Shown here in pieces: positions 1,478 through 17,503 of a stretch of DNA of 24,000 nucleotides. Each line of letters begins with the position of its first letter. Position 1 is the first letter of the stretch. The stretch is from Thermococcus barophilus MP (lineage in GTDB: Archaea; Methanobacteriota_B; Thermococci; Thermococcales; Thermococcaceae), in assembly GCF_000151105.2 (NCBI RefSeq), contig NC_014804.1, positions 1,514,567-1,538,566 on the forward strand, given 5' to 3'. Made by a program: the position numbers and the translations under genes. Under the pieces are notes generated by a model, which saw nothing but the letters and a program-made list of their open reading frames with translations, was not told the origin of the DNA and made no database searches.

Positions 1478-2095
1478 TCAAGCAGAGCTCTCAAGCAGTC
1501 TGAGGAAAATTCCTCCAACACCTTCAACCATCATCTGCGCACCAATTGCCATCGTAAAGAGACCAATTATCCTGATGAAGACACCCAAAGTTGTCTTGCT
1601 TATGTTCTCTATCATATAGAGCGTCACAAACATCAGCAGAGCAGTCAGCAAAATCGCTATCAAGATAGCCGAGGCGGAGACCTTTATACCATACTCCGCT
1701 GTCAGGGTGATTGCAGTTGTTATCGCAGCAGGTCCTGCTATAAGGGGAGTTGCAACAGGAACAGCAGCCAAGGCTAAGATGTTCTTCTCCTTCTTGAGCG
1801 TTACCATGCCGCCACCTTCCAGTGCCTCAAGACCTATTTTAAACAGAACAAACCCTCCAGCAATCTTCAAGGCATTCAAGTCAATGTGAAAAATGTCCTG
1901 GAGGATTATTTTACCAGCTACTGCAAAAATTATGAGCAGGATAAAGCCGATTAAGTTTGCCCTGATGATGAGCTGCTTTATGTCTTCTATGTGAAAGTCC
2001 TCCCTAAGTAGGCTAACCAAGAGGATCTTATCGCTCGGATCAATCATGATTAGCATCAGCAGTGAGGCGCTGAGGATTTCTCCAATCATCGACAT
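1478..2095 (-). CDS. MarC/UPF0056 family integral membrane protein
   Basis: About 205 aa and almost entirely hydrophobic helices, with an AGPAAITT-type motif typical of MarC-family proteins. The ORF track starts at TTG 2098; the adjacent ATG at 2095 is more likely. Confidence 0.7.
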
Positions 2096-2131
2096 CAACC
2101 TTTTGAACGATGGCCAGCTTATAAAGTTATG

Positions 2132-2533
2132 CTACCTGTCTTTCATTAGCTTCATGAATTCATTGGGGGTGTAAACTTTGCTGTACCATTCAAAGTCTTT
2201 CTTGTTGTTTGTTATCAGCGGAGCGTTAAGCTTCACTGCTAACGCGCCTATCATGTAGTCTCTTGCGTTTTTTGAAAAATCCCATCTACCAAGAGCATTT
2301 TTCACAACAATCTTGGCACACTCATCATCAAATGGATAAACCCTTATTCCCAAGACATTAAGAAAGGCATCAACATAGGCTTTACCTTCCTCATAACTAC
2401 CACGCTTTTTTGCATGGTGGTAAAGGTACTCTATATACGCCACTGCACTCAGTATAGGTTCATGGGGACTTTTCTTAAGCCATTTGAGGAACTCTTTATC
2501 ATGAAGAACGTTTGTGTCAAGAACTATCTTCAT
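2132..2533 (-). CDS. vapC: PIN-domain ribonuclease toxin VapC
   Basis: 133 aa. The N-terminus MKIVLDTNVL carries the first PIN acidic residue, with further conserved acidic positions downstream. It overlaps the upstream antitoxin gene by 17 nt, the classic vapBC arrangement. Confidence 0.85.
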   Translation of the reverse strand: MKIVLDTNVLHDKEFLKWLKKSPHEPILSAVAYIEYLYHHAKKRGSYEEGKAYVDAFLNVLGIRVYPFDDECAKIVVKNALGRWDFSKNARDYMIGALAVKLNAPLITNNKKDFEWYSKVYTPNEFMKLMKDR

Positions 2534-2759
2534 CTGCTTTCCTCCTGAAAATTTTACTAAGCCCTTCCCTCATTTCTTCAGTGGTCTCATCAATGTCCTT
2601 TGAAAGCTCAGTCATTTCTTCAAGAAGGTCTTCGAATTTCATGATCACGTACCCTTCCTTAGTCTTGACAAAGACAACCTCATCACCAGCCTTTATATTG
2701 AGTGCCTCCCTAACCTCCTTGGGAATTGTTACTTGGTATTTCCTTGTAACAGTTACCAT
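2517..2759 (-). CDS. vapB: AbrB/SpoVT-type antitoxin VapB
   Basis: MVTVTRKYQVTIPKEVREALNIKAGDEVVF is a swapped-hairpin AbrB/MazE-like DNA-binding motif. The ORF track extends to 2810, but the ATG at 2759 has GGTGA 5 nt upstream, and the extra N-terminal 17 aa look like read-through. Confidence 0.8.
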   Translation of the reverse strand: MVTVTRKYQVTIPKEVREALNIKAGDEVVFVKTKEGYVIMKFEDLLEEMTELSKDIDETTEEMREGLSKIFRRKADEDSS

Positions 2760-2839
2760 TACAATCACCAAAATGTAATACCAAAATGAGGTTAATAAGG
2801 CTATCGTCACCTATTTTAATATGCGTCGTGGAGAATAAA

Positions 2840-3060
2840 GTATGCGATGATGAAACCGGGGTCTTCTTCACGTGAGTTTTCGTGAACCCACGTGAAGATT
2901 CATTCCCCGTGCAACGACGGGTGCCCAGACTTAGACCGTCCCGCCCACTCTTCTTCTCGTTTAGTTCGCTACGGCGGAACGGGTCGCCCGAACACCCACC
3001 GAGTTCAGCCAGCCCTCTACCTCGCCTTGCTCACAGACTTCATTGGACCGGCATCATTAC
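2840..3060 (-). ncRNA. unclassified GC-rich structured RNA with two kink-turn hairpins (ends approximate)
   Basis: Hand count over 2851-3060 gives 120/210 G+C (57%), versus 9/40 in the flanking 3061-3100. On the minus strand G=73 and C=47. Read on the minus strand the region folds into a nested structure. Closing helix: 3057-3052 with 2852-2847. Arm Kt-A spans 3051-3009. A central arm has helices 3001-2993/2923-2915 and 2982-2973/2945-2936. Arm Kt-B spans 2908-2858. Five G-U wobbles in these helices would be C-A mismatches on the plus strand, and the two k-turn motifs (AAU bulge plus tandem G-A/A-G) exist only in the minus reading. A BRE/TATA-like CGAAATACTTAAATA sits about 27 nt upstream of 3060 on the minus strand, and a T-rich CTTTATTCT follows the 3' side. 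Confidence 0.55.
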
Positions 3061-3100
3061 CAAAAACTATTTAAGAACATATGTATTTAAGTATTTCGGT
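3061..3100. promoter_or_regulatory. divergent promoter region with TATTTAAG direct repeat and imperfect palindrome
   Basis: TATTTAAG occurs at 3068-3075 and again at 3084-3091. ACATATGT (3077-3084) is the core of an imperfect 20-bp palindrome spanning 3071-3090. The first box lies about 26 nt upstream of the GGTGA/ATG of the RHH gene. The second, read on the minus strand as CTTAAATA with an upstream CGAAA, lies about 27 nt from the RNA 5' end. Confidence 0.35.
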
Positions 3101-3107
3101 GAATACG

Positions 3108-3269
3108 ATGGGAGTCATAACCGTGAAAATACCCGACGATTTAGAAGTGAGGTTCCGAAAGAAAATCCTCGACGTTTATGGCGTCAAAAAAGGAGCACTT
3201 GGGAAGGCGATAAGTGAGGCGATCGAACTATGGCTGGAAAAACACGAAAAATCCGGAGAGCGGAAGTAA
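3108..3269 (+). CDS. ribbon-helix-helix (CopG/Arc-like) DNA-binding protein
   Basis: 53 aa from ATG 3108, with GGTGA at 3098-3102. The layout is beta strand VITVKIPDDL, helix EVRFRKKILDVYG, turn KKGAL, then helix GKAISEAIELWLEK, which is the RHH pattern. The ORF track starts 9 codons earlier at 3081. The gene overlaps the next gene by 40 nt. Confidence 0.75.
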   Translation: MGVITVKIPDDLEVRFRKKILDVYGVKKGALGKAISEAIELWLEKHEKSGERK

Positions 3270-4291
3270 ATTACATAACCATAAAGACAAGACTCAAACC
3301 AGAAACAAAAGACGACTACTTAAAACTTGCACTCCTCTGCGAGAGGTTCAAAAAGGCAGTAGAATTAGCAATACGATTTCAACTAAAGGGTCTCAAGAAG
3401 AGCGAGGGCGTGAAAGAAATATCACGGCTAATCCTTAACAACTGGTGGTATTCTGATAGTGCGTGGGATTATGCGAAAATGTTGTTGAAAGGGACAACAC
3501 AAAACGGTGGGAATCCAAAACATATTCACCTGAAGTCAAAGTTCCTCATCAGCAAACCAAAGGAGAATGAAAACGGAAACAGAAACGTGAGAATGGAAGG
3601 GGTGAAGGTTAAAATACGCTCGAACGGGGAGTGGCTGAATTTCAAACTCAAAACAGTGGGAAAATTTCTTCCGGTTGTTCTCAACGCTCAAAAGTCCAAA
3701 TACGGTGCACAGATAGTCCTGAAGAATGGGAGGGCTTATCTGCACTTGCAAATCCCATTCTGGATTTATCTTGAGCATTTTAGGAGAACCACAAAGGGAC
3801 GGTTGTATGCGGGTTTTGACTTGAACTCGGACAGGGTGAATATGGTTATTCTAGACGAGAACGGGATTATTCGGGACGTTAAAGTTGTGCATTTTCCAGA
3901 GGTTAATTCTCCGGGTTTCTCTAAGTGGAAGGCGAAGGACTCAAGGGTGAAGGCTCTCTCCCAGCTACTTGACTATGCGTATTATCACGGTGTTAGGGTC
4001 GTGTTTTTTGAGGATTTAGAGAGGATTAAACGCAGGAATGGAAAGGCTGCGAGTTCGAGGAGAGGAAACAGGAAGGCGTTAAATTTTGCTAAGAAGGAGT
4101 TATTGGAACACGGGGTTATTATAGCGTTGAAAAGGGGCTTCGAAGTGTTTTTGGTTAATCCCGCTGGTTCTTCCAAGTTGGGAAAAGAATTAAGTCGGAG
4201 ACTGGGTTTTGACGTTCACTCATCGTCAGCATTCGTTATTGGTTGGTGGGGATTAAACTACCTGAAAACTCACAAAATAAAGAACAATTAA
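3230..4291 (+). CDS. compact TnpB-like RuvC-fold protein lacking the zinc ribbon (IS200/IS605 OrfB-derived, stand-alone)
   Basis: 353 aa. The N-terminus VNYITIKTRLKPETKDDYLKLALLCERFKKAV resembles the TnpB N-terminal strand-helix. RuvC-I is AGFD(197)LNSD, RuvC-II is VVFFE(261)DLERIK, and FLVNPAGSS (residues 307-315; VNPAGSS at 309-315) stands in for the NPAYTSQ motif. RuvC-III is GFD(328)VHSSSAFVIG, compared with DRDxNAAxNI. The whole protein has one Cys (C37), so no CxxC...CxxC zinc finger exists. No tnpA is adjacent. Confidence 0.8.
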   Translation: MAGKTRKIRRAEVNYITIKTRLKPETKDDYLKLALLCERFKKAVELAIRFQLKGLKKSEGVKEISRLILNNWWYSDSAWDYAKMLLKGTTQNGGNPKHIHLKSKFLISKPKENENGNRNVRMEGVKVKIRSNGEWLNFKLKTVGKFLPVVLNAQKSKYGAQIVLKNGRAYLHLQIPFWIYLEHFRRTTKGRLYAGFDLNSDRVNMVILDENGIIRDVKVVHFPEVNSPGFSKWKAKDSRVKALSQLLDYAYYHGVRVVFFEDLERIKRRNGKAASSRRGNRKALNFAKKELLEHGVIIALKRGFEVFLVNPAGSSKLGKELSRRLGFDVHSSSAFVIGWWGLNYLKTHKIKNN

Positions 4292-4315
4292 TTTTGGGCA
4301 CTGGATGATTGGTAA

Positions 4316-15561: not shown

Positions 15562-15639
15562 GGGGCCGTGGGGTAGCTTGGCCTATCCTTCCGGCTTCGG
15601 GAGCCGGGGACCCGGGTTCAAATCCCGGCGGCCCCACCA
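15562..15639 (+). tRNA. tRNA-Pro (anticodon CGG), CCA encoded
   Basis: Acceptor stem GGGGCCG/CGGCCCC. Anticodon stem CCGGC/GCCGG with loop TTCGGGA, giving anticodon CGG. T arm CCGGG-TTCAAAT-CCCGG, discriminator A, and a genomic CCA. A BRE/TATA-like CGAAATCTTTATAA sits about 30 nt upstream. Confidence 0.93.
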
Positions 15640-15738: not shown

Positions 15739-17503
15739 ATTTCAATTCTCTTAGAGTCTTATTGGAACAGAGGTAGTGGCTGATACGGTTAAGGCTACTT
15801 TGGAAGCTTTCAATTCTCTTAGAGTCTTATTGGAACTTGCAGTTTGTTAGGACGCACTTTTTAATAGATGTAGCTAAGTCTTTCAGAACTTTCAATTCTC
15901 TTAGAGTCTTATTGGAACTGTCGTAAATGCTAAGATTATTCTCGATAAAGCCGCCTTTCAATTCTCTTAGAGTCTTATTGGAACATCATTTGGGGAGCAA
16001 CAATCATGCTCTTTGGCATAATCTCTTTCAATTCTCTTAGAGTCTTATTGGAACTTTGTATTAGTAGCGTCAGCACTTGCAGCGGTTAGGGCTTTCAATT
16101 CTCTTAGAGTCTTATTGGAACCATTCTGAAGAAGGCTGGATATGTTAAACAAGTGACTACCTTTCAATTCTCTTAGAGTCTTATTGGAACTTCAAAGATA
16201 TGCTTAGCTATTGCCGCATCTTTGATCTTTCAATTCTCTTAGAGTCTTATTGGAACGCAGATTTGGATCGCTGGAGGGCCGTATTGGGTCGCAACTTTCA
16301 ATTCTCTTAGAGTCTTATTGGAACCTTGGTAACTGCTTTGAGTAACTGACTTTTCGCTAAGCCCTTTCAATTCTCTTAGAGTCTTATTGGAACCTCAAGA
16401 GCCACGACCATCACGCTCCTTCTTTATTTCTTCTTTCAATTCTCTTAGAGTCTTATTGGAACTTGACCCAGAAAGAGACCAAGAAGAAGAAGCGTTTTTT
16501 TACTTTCAATTCTCTTAGAGTCTTATTGGAACATAATCCTCTTAGGATGCAGCTTAATATCTGGGATATCCTTTCAATTCTCTTAGAGTCTTATTGGAAC
16601 ACGCCGAATGCGCTCACAGTTGAGCCTTGGATACCGGCGGATGCACTTTCAATTCTCTTAGAGTCTTATTGGAACTTTGCTCAGTGTAAAGTTGCCTTGC
16701 CAATTCAGCTTGATGATTGCTTTCAATTCTCTTAGAGTCTTATTGGAACCGATGTCCACCATTAAAGTGTGCTCGTAAGTCGTCAACTTTCAATTCTCTT
16801 AGAGTCTTATTGGAACTTCCAAGCCGATCCTTTTCGTGGAAAAAAGAACTCGAACTTTCAATTCTCTTAGAGTCTTATTGGAACAAGAAGAAATCGAGCG
16901 GTTGAAAGCGGAGCAATGGTCGTCTTTCAATTCTCTTAGAGTCTTATTGGAACGAGCAAGCTTGGATTGAGGTAATAGCTGCGTGCATCACTTTCAATTC
17001 TCTTAGAGTCTTATTGGAACACTCCGTTTGTAGTTACAAAGAAGAATTTGCCCTCATCTTTCAATTCTCTTAGAGTCTTATTGGAACATCCACATTGGTG
17101 TTCTCATTTTTGGAATAGTATTCACAATCTTTCAATTCTCTTAGAGTCTTATTGGAACTGCTCGAAGTATTCAATACAACATTTGTCAATATAACAGCTT
17201 TCAATTCTCTTAGAGTCTTATTGGAACTTTTATGATGATTTTGAGACAGCATTAGACACGGCAAAACTTTCAATTCTCTTAGAGTCTTATTGGAACTTAC
17301 TATTCATCGTCGGCTCACTTGTGGGCAAAAAAGCCTTTCAATTCTCTTAGAGTCTTATTGGAACTCTGAGAATCATTGCAACCTCACCTCAATGCGAATT
17401 TTCTTTCAATTCTCTTAGAGTCTTATTGGAACTGGAACCTGATCGGTTCCATCATCATAAAGAGTCTTCTTTTCTTTCAATTCTCTTAGAGTCTTATTGG
17501 AAC
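15739..17503 (-). CRISPR. CRISPR array, 26 x 30-nt repeats, 25 spacers; no cas genes in window
   Basis: Plus-strand repeat is CTTTCAATTCTCTTAGAGTCTTATTGGAAC, which reads GTTCCAATAAGACTCTAAGAGAATTGAAAG on the minus strand. In order from 15769, spacers are 38,52,36,40,37,39,36,38,39,39,40,38,45,44,37,38,39,37,37,41,39,39,38,38,41 nt. Only the repeat at 15739-15768 is degenerate (first plus-strand base A instead of C). This marks the leader-distal end, so transcription runs on the minus strand, consistent with the ATTGAAAG 3' end that gives the 8-nt crRNA handle in P. furiosus. Confidence 0.97.

What the first reader, a model, noticed from the sequence alone, without database searches (positions are those of the whole stretch)
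2840..3060. Unclassified ~215-nt GC-rich RNA with a closing helix and three arms, two of them near-identical kink-turn hairpins
A 57% G+C island (120/210 by hand count) sits in AT-rich intergenic DNA, where the flank is 9/40. In AT-rich hyperthermophiles this is the classic signature of structural RNA genes.

On the minus strand I can draw a fully nested fold:
- Closing helix: AUGAUG 3057-3052 with CAUCAU 2852-2847.
- Kt-A: C-stem 3051-3045 with 3015-3009 (7 bp, two G-U), bulge AAU 3044-3042, sheared G3041-A3016 and A3040-G3017, A3039-A3018, then stem 3038-3035 with 3022-3019.
- Central arm: 3001-2993 with 2923-2915 (9 bp, two G-U), enclosing 2982-2973 with 2945-2936 (10 bp, one G-U).
- Kt-B: GGGG 2908-2905 with CCCC 2861-2858, bulge AAU 2904-2902, G2901-A2862 and A2900-G2863, A2899-A2864, then a perfect 10-bp stem 2898-2889 with 2874-2865 and a 14-nt loop.

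Both k-turns share the AAUGAA...AGA design and match the consensus of C-stem, 3-nt bulge and tandem G-A/A-G. In archaea that consensus is the L7Ae binding site. The wobble pairs, the G>C skew (73 vs 47) and the k-turns exist only in the minus-strand reading. I do not recognise it as tRNA, 5S, SRP, RNase P, C/D or H/ACA RNA.
Basis: partly seen in the sequence, partly recalled or inferred. Interest (0 to 1): 0.8.

Follow-up and report, generated by a model that had tools for sequence, protein, structure and literature searches.

The report
Guide RNA of an archaeal TnpB transposon
The GC-rich island is a real, strongly conserved structured RNA that is most likely the previously missing guide RNA of a small mobile element in Thermococcus barophilus encoding a TnpB-like (Cas12-ancestor) nuclease; the RNA carries four kink-turn motifs and is transcribed away from the nuclease gene.

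Summary
A 204-nt structured RNA lies on the minus strand at 2858-3061. The 'closing helix' is wrong: its 3' strand lies outside the conserved RNA, in flanking host DNA.

The RNA is not free-standing. In 41 of 61 testable loci from Thermococci, Archaeoglobi, Thermoproteota and other archaea it sits 170-450 nt upstream of, and divergent from, a small RHH or AbrB gene plus a 353-aa TnpB-like gene.

Similarity between copies stops exactly at the RNA's last base (GACCCC). A related genome holds the uninterrupted empty site. The 1439-bp unit (2858-4296) is inserted without target duplication after YGCC. Near-identical copies (99.2%) sit in unrelated flanks.

It is therefore best read as an omega-RNA-type guide scaffold at a transposon end, with the flank as guide. 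Four K-turn motifs suggest L7Ae as a cofactor.

The protein clade is published (RHH/MazE-TnpB, PNAS 2023) as non-mobile and a putative toxin-antitoxin pair, with no RNA identified. No transcript or activity data exist.

The parts
2858..4296 (.). Whole mobile unit (1439 bp; the cut points are ambiguous by 2 nt because CC occurs at both junctions).
   Evidence: L001 matches the window backbone up to 4297 and again from 2859 downwards. L001 carries the uninterrupted site CATCCAGTGCC|GGTGTCATCATCGC, and there is no target duplication.
2858..3061 (-). Conserved RNA scaffold, 204 nt, running from the 5' GG to the 3' GACCCC.
   Evidence: The covariance model gives 158 bits here and finds homologues in 41 of 61 testable loci, always in the same position and strand. 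Covariation is shown.
3002..3061 (-).
   Evidence: Compensatory changes occur in P1 and in the Kt2 C-stem. G3041/A3040 are 35/35, G3017 34/35, A3016 36/36, G3032/A3031 34/34, and G3023/A3022 32/35 and 34/35.
2915..3001 (-). Central arm with a conserved tandem U.G (U2992, U2991) and a conserved UAAG bulge (2933-2930). The apical part is variable or deleted in other lineages.
   Evidence: All 14 + 6 consensus pairs show double changes, and U.G is kept in 26-27 sequences.
2858..2908 (-). It ends at the element boundary.
   Evidence: G2901 is 40/41, A2900 41/41, G2863 39/41 and A2862 42/42. The C-stem covaries as GGGG/CCCC, GGGU/ACCC, GAGU/ACUC and CCGU/ACGG.
2838..2857 (-). Putative guide: the 3' tail read from host flank (GGUUUCAUCAUCGCAUACUU). 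Its length is unknown.
   Evidence: Flanks are unrelated between copies. The same sequence is present at the L001 empty site directly after TGCC. Inferred, not shown.
3062..3107 (.). Interdigitated divergent promoters. TATA-like box 3083-3090 lies 26 nt from the RNA 5' end (minus strand). TATA-like box 3067-3074 serves the RHH-tnpB operon (plus strand).
   Evidence: Both boxes and their spacing are conserved in Thermococcus and Archaeoglobaceae loci. In Thermoproteota a single palindromic TTTATAA takes their place. The assignment is inferred from archaeal promoter geometry.
3108..3269 (+). 53-aa ribbon-helix-helix protein (ADT84700.1).
   Evidence: 5 of 10 family members hit Pfam RHH_6 (best 5.7e-07), and PDB hits include RHH proteins. 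A small RHH-type or AbrB-like ORF was found between the RNA and the tnpB-like gene in all but two of the 37 RNA-positive loci examined.
3230..4291 (+). 353-aa TnpB-like RuvC protein (ADT84701.1, T. barophilus MP) without a zinc finger.
   Evidence: NCBIfam TIGR01765 at 2e-20, with weak TIGR01766 and guided_TnpB hits. Precomputed Pfam family PF27229 SSO2105_N. AF2 model pLDDT 87.7; the best folds are Cas12f, Cas12k and Fanzor2. D197, E261 and H330 are invariant and D328 is kept in >=90%.
4297..4300 (-). Target or TAM-like motif TGCC, immediately 5' of the other element end on the RNA-sense strand.
   Evidence: It is present in the empty site. YGCC precedes the element end at all 15 junctions I could define, in Thermococcus, Archaeoglobaceae and Sulfolobaceae.

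Best explanation
The RNA is the guide-RNA scaffold (omega-RNA / reRNA type) of a compact IS200/IS605-like mobile element.

Proposed mechanism:
- It is transcribed from its own promoter, divergently from the element's RHH-tnpB operon, and runs outward across the element end.
- The 204-nt scaffold is therefore followed by a tail copied from whatever host DNA flanks that copy.
- The scaffold is bound by the element's 353-aa TnpB-like RuvC nuclease.
- Its four K-turns are probably clamped by the host K-turn protein L7Ae, which would pre-fold the RNA at about 85 C.
- The tail then directs the nuclease to DNA that has YGCC followed by the flank sequence. That is the joint left when the element is lost, which allows re-copying (homing and maintenance).
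- The small RHH (or AbrB) protein most likely represses the shared bidirectional promoter.

Shown:
- A structured, covarying RNA.
- Its fixed linkage and orientation relative to the tnpB-like gene.
- Its end coinciding with the element boundary.
- Insertion without duplication next to GCC.
- Recent mobility.

Inferred:
- Transcription.
- Binding by the TnpB-like protein and by L7Ae.
- Guide function.
- Cleavage.
- Repression by RHH.
For: 1. RNA reality:
- z = -4.9 on the minus strand only.
- 20 of 49 pairs are compensatory in an 8-sequence MAFFT alignment.
- In 49 sequences, 89.6% of cells are paired against 42-53% when partners are slid, and 47 of 49 pairs show double changes.
- Conserved U.G pairs make the fold strand-specific.

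2. Linkage:
- Homologues were found by fetching loci through the protein alone.
- The RNA is then on the opposite strand, 170-450 nt upstream, in 41 of 61 loci with enough upstream DNA, plus 3 more by motif. It is also present in 9 of the 13 metagenome loci, several of which are too short to cover the upstream region.

3. Boundary:
- Similarity among copies ends at the last scaffold base.

4. Empty site and no target duplication. YGCC is present at 15 of 15 junctions.

5. Mobility:
- L001 and L084 elements are 99.2% identical over 1461 nt with unrelated flanks.
- Sulfolobaceae genomes hold 3-5 copies at 80-87% identity.
- The element is 78% identical between the window and L001 while the backbone is 89-92% identical.

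6. The protein has a TnpB/Cas12f fold.

7. K-turn signatures are nearly invariant.

8. Precedents:
- OrfB-linked 211-216-nt P. abyssi RNAs sRkB/sRkC have two K-turns that bind L7Ae in EMSA and footprinting (PMC3124441).
- Arc-type RHH proteins repress IS605 promoters (bioRxiv 10.64898/2026.09.24.754181).
Against: - There is no transcript evidence for either strand, and the RNA's 5' and 3' ends are inferred.
- In every characterised TnpB system the omega-RNA is co-oriented with tnpB and overlaps its 3' end. Here it is upstream and divergent.
- The protein lacks the C4 zinc finger and has a non-canonical RuvC-III site (Asp to His according to PMC10691335), so nuclease activity is unproven.
- No TnpA transposase is in the element, and none was looked for genome-wide.
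- The published survey scored this clade as non-mobile.
- The TAM rests on one empty site plus junction conservation.
- The large covariation count was made on a model-fitted alignment. A second MAFFT alignment lost the central helix through misalignment.
- 17 of 61 loci have no detectable RNA, possibly because the model lacks sensitivity.
Confidence: 0.75

Rival explanations
1. The unit is an immobilised, exapted RHH/MazE-TnpB toxin-antitoxin module, as proposed in PNAS 2023. The RNA would be a fixed guide or regulator that aims the toxin at a host site, with no role in transposon maintenance.
For: - This is the published hypothesis for the clade (PMC10691335).
- T. barophilus has a single copy, next to a VapBC module.
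- The distribution is patchy.
Against: - An empty site exists in a relative.
- 99.2%-identical copies sit in different flanks.
- There are several diverged copies per genome.
- The tail differs in every copy and is simply host flank, so there is no fixed target.
- RHH and AbrB swap as in promoter regulators.
Confidence: 0.1
2. The RNA is a transposon-end regulatory RNA, for example a scaffold that titrates or recruits factors or controls read-out into neighbouring genes. It would not be a guide for the nuclease.
For: - Many archaeal IS elements make non-guide sRNAs (PMC3432209).
- Its promoter overlaps the operon promoter, so its transcription could itself regulate the operon.
- Solo RNA copies without a gene exist at L025 1544-1723, L039 2873-3042 and L055 8204-8386.
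Against: - A 200-nt multi-domain fold conserved across archaeal phyla with protein-like co-inheritance is more than a regulator needs.
- The scaffold ends exactly at the boundary, as in omega-RNAs.
- The partner protein has the RNA-guided-nuclease fold.
Confidence: 0.1
3. It is a free-standing housekeeping L7Ae RNP RNA, for example an unusual box C/D or H/ACA-type guide or an RNase P/SRP-like RNA.
For: - It carries K-turn motifs.
- The 5' AAUGAUG...CUGA resembles boxes C and D.
- It is a GC island in AT-rich DNA.
Against: - There is no Rfam hit, including the C/D, H/ACA and Hgc families.
- There is no C'/D' arrangement.
- It is absent from the syntenic site of a close relative.
- Copy number varies from 0 to 5 and always tracks the tnpB-like gene.
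- The D-like box is not conserved outside Thermococcus.
Confidence: 0.03
4. The conserved structure acts only at the DNA level, as the single-stranded transposon end recognised by a Y1 transposase, and is never a functional RNA.
For: - IS200/IS605 ends carry subterminal hairpins. The perfect 10-bp Kt4 hairpin lies 7 nt from the end.
- A 16-nt subterminal inverted repeat exists in L001.
Against: - Conserved G.U (G.T) pairs and four K-turn motifs are RNA features.
- 200 nt is far more than a transposase end needs.
- A promoter sits at the right distance.
- The two roles are not exclusive.
Confidence: 0.02

Closest known systems
TnpB-omegaRNA (OMEGA) systems of IS200/IS605 elements (ISDra2-type)
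   Same: - RuvC-fold TnpB-like protein.
- Long structured non-coding scaffold that abuts a transposon end, with a 3' guide taken from the flank.
- Insertion without target duplication next to a short motif that doubles as the TAM.
- Non-autonomous, orfB-only copies.
   Different: - The RNA gene lies upstream of and divergent from tnpB, with its own promoter, instead of overlapping the 3' end of tnpB on the same strand.
- No C4 zinc finger.
- Non-canonical RuvC-III site.
- The scaffold is built on four K-turn motifs.
- A G/C-rich YGCC motif replaces the usual T-rich TAMs.
RHH/MazE-TnpB clade, branch RIIIr-4 (Altae-Tran et al. 2023, PMC10691335)
   Same: By description it is the same protein clade:
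- It is archaeal (Euryarchaeota and Crenarchaeota).
- tnpB lies directly downstream of a small RHH or AbrB/MazE gene.
- There is no zinc finger.
- There is a conserved His at RuvC-III.
   Different: - That paper calls the clade non-mobile, proposes a toxin-antitoxin pair and only guesses at a guide in a '3' untranslated region'.
- Here the RNA is identified upstream on the other strand.
- Only 5 nt separate the stop codon from the element end.
- Mobility is documented.
- I could not cross-check accessions because no supplement is held.
P. abyssi sRkB/sRkC, and sRk48/52 and HgcC (Phok et al. 2011, PMC3124441; Jaeger et al. 2014, PMC4247193)
   Same: - They are Thermococcales RNAs of about 130-216 nt linked to OrfB/TnpB sequences.
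- sRkB and sRkC have their own promoter, a K-turn in the 5' stem and another in a 3' arm.
- L7Ae binding was shown by EMSA and footprinting.
   Different: - No sequence match: 10 published oligos give no hit in the RNA, and there is no HgcC Rfam hit.
- Those RNAs match the sense 3' end of orfB.
- They were never interpreted as guides.
Archaeal box C/D sRNA K-turn and other L7Ae sites (Kt-7 type)
   Same: - C-stem, 3-nt bulge and tandem sheared G.A/A.G.
- Kt1 in Thermococcus reads AAUGAUG...CUGA with a U.U at position 3, exactly like boxes C and D.
   Different: - No C'/D' boxes and no 10-12-nt methylation guides.
- 204 nt instead of 50-70 nt.
- Four K-turns, three of them stacked in series.
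Arc (RHH) repressors of IS605-family transposons (bioRxiv 10.64898/2026.09.24.754181)
   Same: A small RHH gene inside a TnpB-carrying element, next to the element's promoter.
   Different: - Those are bacterial elements that also carry TnpA.
- Here the RHH (or a non-homologous AbrB-like protein) is translationally overlapped with tnpB and faces a bidirectional promoter that also drives the guide RNA.
- Binding was not tested.

Membership tests
TnpB-omegaRNA (OMEGA) system | Adjacent protein with the TnpB/Cas12 RuvC fold. | tested here: met
   TIGR01765 at 2e-20, with weak TIGR01766 and guided_TnpB hits. Foldseek top hits are Cas12f, Cas12k and Fanzor2, probability 1.0.
TnpB-omegaRNA (OMEGA) system | Canonical D-E-D catalytic triad. 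| tested here: inconclusive
   D197 and E261 are invariant. At RuvC-III, H330 is invariant and D328 is kept in >=90%. The literature reads this as Asp to His. I had no model coordinates to decide.
TnpB-omegaRNA (OMEGA) system | C4 zinc finger between RuvC-II and RuvC-III. | tested here: not met
   There are no Cys pairs. An 11-residue linker replaces the zinc finger. This agrees with RIIIr-4.
TnpB-omegaRNA (OMEGA) system | The structured RNA scaffold ends at the transposon end, and its 3' guide is flanking DNA. | tested here: met
   Similarity stops at GACCCC, flanks are unrelated, and an empty site exists. The RNA's true 3' end was not determined.
TnpB-omegaRNA (OMEGA) system | The RNA is co-oriented with tnpB and overlaps or follows its 3' end. 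| tested here: not met
   The RNA is on the opposite strand, upstream of the RHH-tnpB operon, in all 40+ loci. Only 5 nt lie between the tnpB stop and the element end.
TnpB-omegaRNA (OMEGA) system | Insertion without target-site duplication, 3' of a short conserved motif (TAM). | tested here: met
   One empty site shows no duplication. YGCC is present at 15 of 15 junctions. Function as a TAM was not tested.
TnpB-omegaRNA (OMEGA) system | RNA-guided DNA cleavage. | not testable with these tools
   This needs biochemistry or an interference assay.
RHH/MazE-TnpB clade (RIIIr-4) | Archaeal tnpB directly downstream of a small RHH or AbrB/MazE gene. | tested here: met
   A small RHH-type or AbrB-like ORF was found in 35 of the 37 RNA-positive loci examined; none was found in L039, and the only ORF in L064 resembles neither type. 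RHH_6 hits are.
RHH/MazE-TnpB clade (RIIIr-4) | Non-mobile (exapted). | tested here: not met
   There is an empty site, a 99.2%-identical copy in other flanks, and several copies per genome.
RHH/MazE-TnpB clade (RIIIr-4) | The RHH acts as antitoxin to the TnpB toxin. | not testable with these tools
   This is only a hypothesis in PMC10691335.
K-turn (L7Ae-binding) motif | C-stem, 3-nt bulge, tandem sheared G.A/A.G, then the NC-stem. | tested here: met
   Four instances are present. The GA/AG positions are 85-100% conserved where present, and the C-stems covary. Kt1 often has A.A at the second pair.
K-turn (L7Ae-binding) motif | Binding by L7Ae. | not testable with these tools
   The only precedent is in other OrfB-linked RNAs (PMC3124441).
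Box C/D sRNA | C, D', C' and D boxes with two 10-12-nt guides; 50-70 nt long. | tested here: not met
   Only a C/D-like terminal K-turn is present, and only in Thermococcus. The best Rfam C/D match is 15 bits against a gathering score of 44, on the wrong strand.
HgcC / sRkB-C / sRk48-52 (known Thermococcales OrfB-linked RNAs) | Sequence or model match. | tested here: not met
   There is no Rfam HgcC hit. None of 10 published oligos matches the RNA with up to 4 mismatches.

The most novel reading that the evidence does not exclude
A hyperthermophile-specific branch of TnpB works as a three- or four-part RNP.
- It comprises a zinc-finger-less 353-aa nuclease and a separately and divergently transcribed guide RNA.
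- The fold of that RNA is held by four host L7Ae molecules on serial K-turns, so L7Ae would be an obligate subunit.
- An RHH or AbrB repressor gates a shared bidirectional promoter.
- The unit is an active transposon with a YGCC TAM, not an exapted toxin-antitoxin pair.

This would be the first natural RNA-guided nuclease that borrows the snoRNP/ribosomal K-turn protein. It would also be a new locus architecture for the TnpB/Cas12 lineage.
Probability: 0.35. Interest if true: 0.8.

Novelty: new variant of a known kind. Interest (0 to 1): 0.68.

Why it matters
- It supplies a candidate for the missing RNA partner of a published but uncharacterised archaeal TnpB clade, and it changes how that clade is read: mobile and guide-bearing, rather than a fixed toxin-antitoxin pair.
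- It shows that the guide gene of a TnpB relative can sit upstream on the other strand with its own promoter. Surveys that look only downstream of tnpB would miss this.
- The K-turn-rich scaffold points to L7Ae as a host cofactor, linking transposon guide RNAs with the snoRNP toolkit.
- A 353-aa, zinc-finger-free, presumably thermostable nuclease with a defined ~200-nt scaffold and a GCC-type TAM is directly testable, and may be useful as a compact editor.
- The RNA family is absent from Rfam and could be added.

Tried and rejected
- Rfam at gathering scores and at E <= 10 gave nothing relevant, including HgcC/E/F/G, sscA, C/D, H/ACA, RNase P and SRP.
- Homology to P. abyssi sRkB/sRkC and sRk48/52 was rejected: the published oligos and the sRk48/52 alignment do not match.
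A regex for the Kt2-Kt3 module was used instead and added 3 loci.
- A 14-sequence MAFFT alignment misaligned the central arm, so RNAalifold dropped that helix there. The 8-sequence alignment and the model-based one keep it.
- None of the CRISPR spacers extracted from the window's array matches the element or any fetched locus, and the guide tail matches only its own site in the window.
- Terminal inverted repeats as a family feature were rejected. A perfect 16-nt pair exists in L001, but it is weak in the window and absent in other lineages.
- Literature searches found nothing on this RNA. The terms were TnpB with L7Ae, kink-turn, Thermococcus or RHH, plus SSO2105 and RHH-TnpB.
- The only transcriptome paper that the literature search returned for T. 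barophilus does not mention the locus.
- The PNAS supplement is not held, so accessions could not be cross-checked.

Full report
**Observation**

- The island is real. G+C is 56.9% over 2847-3057, against 41.4% for the window and 24% for the adjacent 3062-3107. G is 72 and C is 48 on the minus strand.
- The minus strand folds to -94.9 kcal/mol (z = -4.9; none of 200 shuffles is as good). The plus strand is unremarkable (z = -1.4).
- Rfam gives nothing here at gathering scores or at E <= 10.

**Surroundings**

- The RNA lies between a VapBC pair (2132-2759, minus strand) and, on the plus strand, a 53-aa ORF (3108-3269) overlapping a 353-aa ORF (3230-4291).
- The 353-aa protein hits NCBIfam TIGR01765 (2e-20) and weakly hits TnpB models.
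- An AlphaFold model from 30 homologues (pLDDT 87.7) is most similar to Cas12f, Cas12k and Fanzor2.
- D197, E261 and H330 are invariant and D328 is nearly so. There is no zinc finger.
- Exact look-up shows the window is Thermococcus barophilus MP. The proteins are ADT84701.1, annotated 'transposase', and ADT84700.1, an RHH protein.

**Linkage**

- I fetched 80 genome loci and 13 metagenome loci through the protein alone.
- BLASTN and nhmmer, then a covariance model built from 8 sequences, find the RNA on the strand opposite the gene, 170-450 nt upstream.
- It is found in 41 of 61 loci that have enough upstream DNA, plus 3 more by a motif search.
- These loci come from Thermococci, Archaeoglobi, Desulfurococcales, Sulfolobales and several other archaeal bins.
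- A small ORF lies between the RNA and the gene in almost all of them. It is either RHH (Pfam RHH_6 in 5 of 10 members) or a non-homologous AbrB-like protein.

**Structure**

- In a plain MAFFT alignment of 8 sequences, RNAalifold predicts 49 pairs, 20 of them with compensatory changes.
- On 49 model-aligned sequences, 89.6% of cells are paired, against 42-53% when partners are slid by 1-3 columns. 47 of 49 pairs show double changes. That alignment is fitted to the model, so the count is generous.
- The closing helix is not. Conservation stops at C2858, and CAUCAU (2852-2847) is host DNA.
- The 5' AUGAUG belongs to another, box C/D-like K-turn closed by a 3-bp P1 (3061-3059 with 3004-3002).
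- A further K-turn-like motif is nested in Kt-A (3038-3019).
- Across 42 full-length homologues the sheared G.A/A.G positions of Kt2, Kt3 and Kt4 are 91-100% conserved, and those of Kt1 are 78-93%.
- The 4-bp C-stem of Kt4 covaries as GGGG/CCCC, GGGU/ACCC, GAGU/ACUC and CCGU/ACGG.
- Conserved tandem U.G pairs in the central arm make the fold strand-specific.

**The RNA ends at a transposon end**

- Among copies within one genome (Sulfolobaceae RB850M, Stygiolobus, Metallosphaera, Archaeoglobaceae), similarity spans about 1.5 kb. It begins exactly at the last scaffold base and ends 5-80 nt after the tnpB-like stop. The flanks are unrelated.
- L001, a Thermococcus MAG whose backbone is 89-92% identical to the window, carries the uninterrupted sequence CATCCAGTGCC|GGTGTCATCATCGCATAC.
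- At that point the window has 1439 bp inserted (2858-4296). There is no target duplication.
- L001's own copy is only 78% identical to the window's. It sits elsewhere (vapC/marC) and is accompanied by a 433-bp deletion.
- The L001 copy and L084 are 99.2% identical over 1461 nt but have different flanks.
- On the RNA-sense strand, all 15 junctions I could define at the other end are preceded by YGCC, and GCC is part of the empty site.
- These are the hallmarks of IS200/IS605-type 'peel and paste' insertion: the target motif serves as TAM and the RE flank serves as guide. That comparison rests on established knowledge of ISDra2 and IS608.

**Promoter (inferred)**

- In Thermococcus and Archaeoglobaceae the 45-47-nt spacer between the RNA 5' end and the small ORF holds two conserved TATA-like boxes.
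- The box at 3083-3090 is centred 26 nt from G3061 on the minus strand, with an A-rich BRE-like stretch behind it.
- The box at 3067-3074 is placed for a plus-strand start about 11 nt before the ATG.
- Thermoproteota have one palindromic TTTATAA in the middle.

**Mechanism**

- The best-supported reading is that this is an omega-RNA-type guide scaffold for the element's TnpB-like nuclease, transcribed outward so that its 3' tail copies the flank.
- The RNP would then recognise YGCC plus the flank, which is the vacant site.
- The K-turns imply L7Ae as a folding cofactor. This is an inference backed by precedent: P. abyssi sRkB and sRkC are 211-216 nt, OrfB-linked, carry two K-turns and bind L7Ae (PMC3124441).
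- The RHH or AbrB protein probably represses the bidirectional promoter, as Arc does in bacterial IS605 elements.

**Literature**

- Altae-Tran et al. 2023 (PMC10691335) describe what is by every stated feature this clade: 'RHH/MazE-TnpB' within branch RIIIr-4, with no zinc finger and RuvC-III Asp to His.
- They score it as non-mobile, propose a toxin-antitoxin pair, and say only that a 3' untranslated region 'could encode a guide RNA'.
- I found no later paper on this clade and no description of this RNA.
- HgcC and sRk48/52 are other OrfB-linked Thermococcales RNAs but do not match.

**Verdict**

- This is a real RNA family, new to Rfam.
- It is very likely the guide RNA of a known but uncharacterised TnpB clade.
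- Its locus architecture is unusual (divergent, with its own promoter) and its scaffold is K-turn-rich.
- It is a new variant of a known kind.

**Main caveats**

- There is no expression or biochemical evidence.
- The active site is non-canonical.
- No transposase has been identified.
- The TAM rests on one empty site plus junction conservation.

Noticed in passing
window 15739-17503 (-) and 15562-15636 (+): A CRISPR array of 26 repeats (Rfam CRISPR-DR6, GTTCCAATAAGACTCTAAGAGAATTGAAAG) lies next to a tRNA gene. None of the spacers extracted matches the element or any fetched locus.
   Followed up: partly
L001 3353-3646 and 5083-5415, against window 1814-2246: In the related MAG the element copy sits inside vapC. 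433 bp spanning the vapC 3' part and the marC 5' part are missing next to its tnpB-side end. So two independent insertions lie within 1 kb of each other in sister genomes, one of them with an adjacent deletion.
   Followed up: partly
L087 (RNA 584-790) and L086, L091: The first 11 nt of the flank after the RNA (GTTGCCGACCC) are the same as the first 11 nt at the opposite end of the same element. This could be a tandem or nested copy, or an RE-LE junction.
   Followed up: no
L001 3643-3658 and 5039-5054; window about 2872-2887 and 4259-4272: There is a perfect 16-nt subterminal inverted repeat, ACTCACGAAAACTCAC (two ACTCAC half-sites). One copy is in the Kt4 hairpin and the other in the last codons of tnpB. 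It is weaker in the window and not seen in other lineages. It may be a protein-binding site.
   Followed up: partly
L025 1544-1723 (+), L039 2873-3042 (-), L055 8204-8386 (-), L019 2876-2906 (+): There are extra RNA copies with no TnpB-like gene beside them (by tblastn), reminiscent of the orphan sRkB/sRkC loci of P. abyssi.
   Followed up: partly
small ORF between the RNA and tnpB in L001-L080: The DNA-binding partner shows non-homologous displacement. It is RHH in Thermococci, Archaeoglobi and some others, and AbrB/SpoVT-like in Sulfolobales and Desulfurococcales, at the same position and about the same size.
   Followed up: partly
window 3230-3269: The RHH ORF and the tnpB-like ORF overlap by 40 nt in different frames. 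L001, L002, L004 and L026 show a similar overlap, which suggests translational coupling.
   Followed up: no
window 2132-2759 (-): A VapC (PIN) and VapB (AbrB/MazE) toxin-antitoxin pair lies directly beside the element. The putative guide tail runs towards the vapB start, 78 nt away.
   Followed up: no
window 2992-2990 / 2926-2924 and 2933-2930: The central arm holds a conserved tandem U.G followed by C-G, and a conserved unpaired UAAG. This looks like a tertiary-contact or protein-contact site.
   Followed up: no
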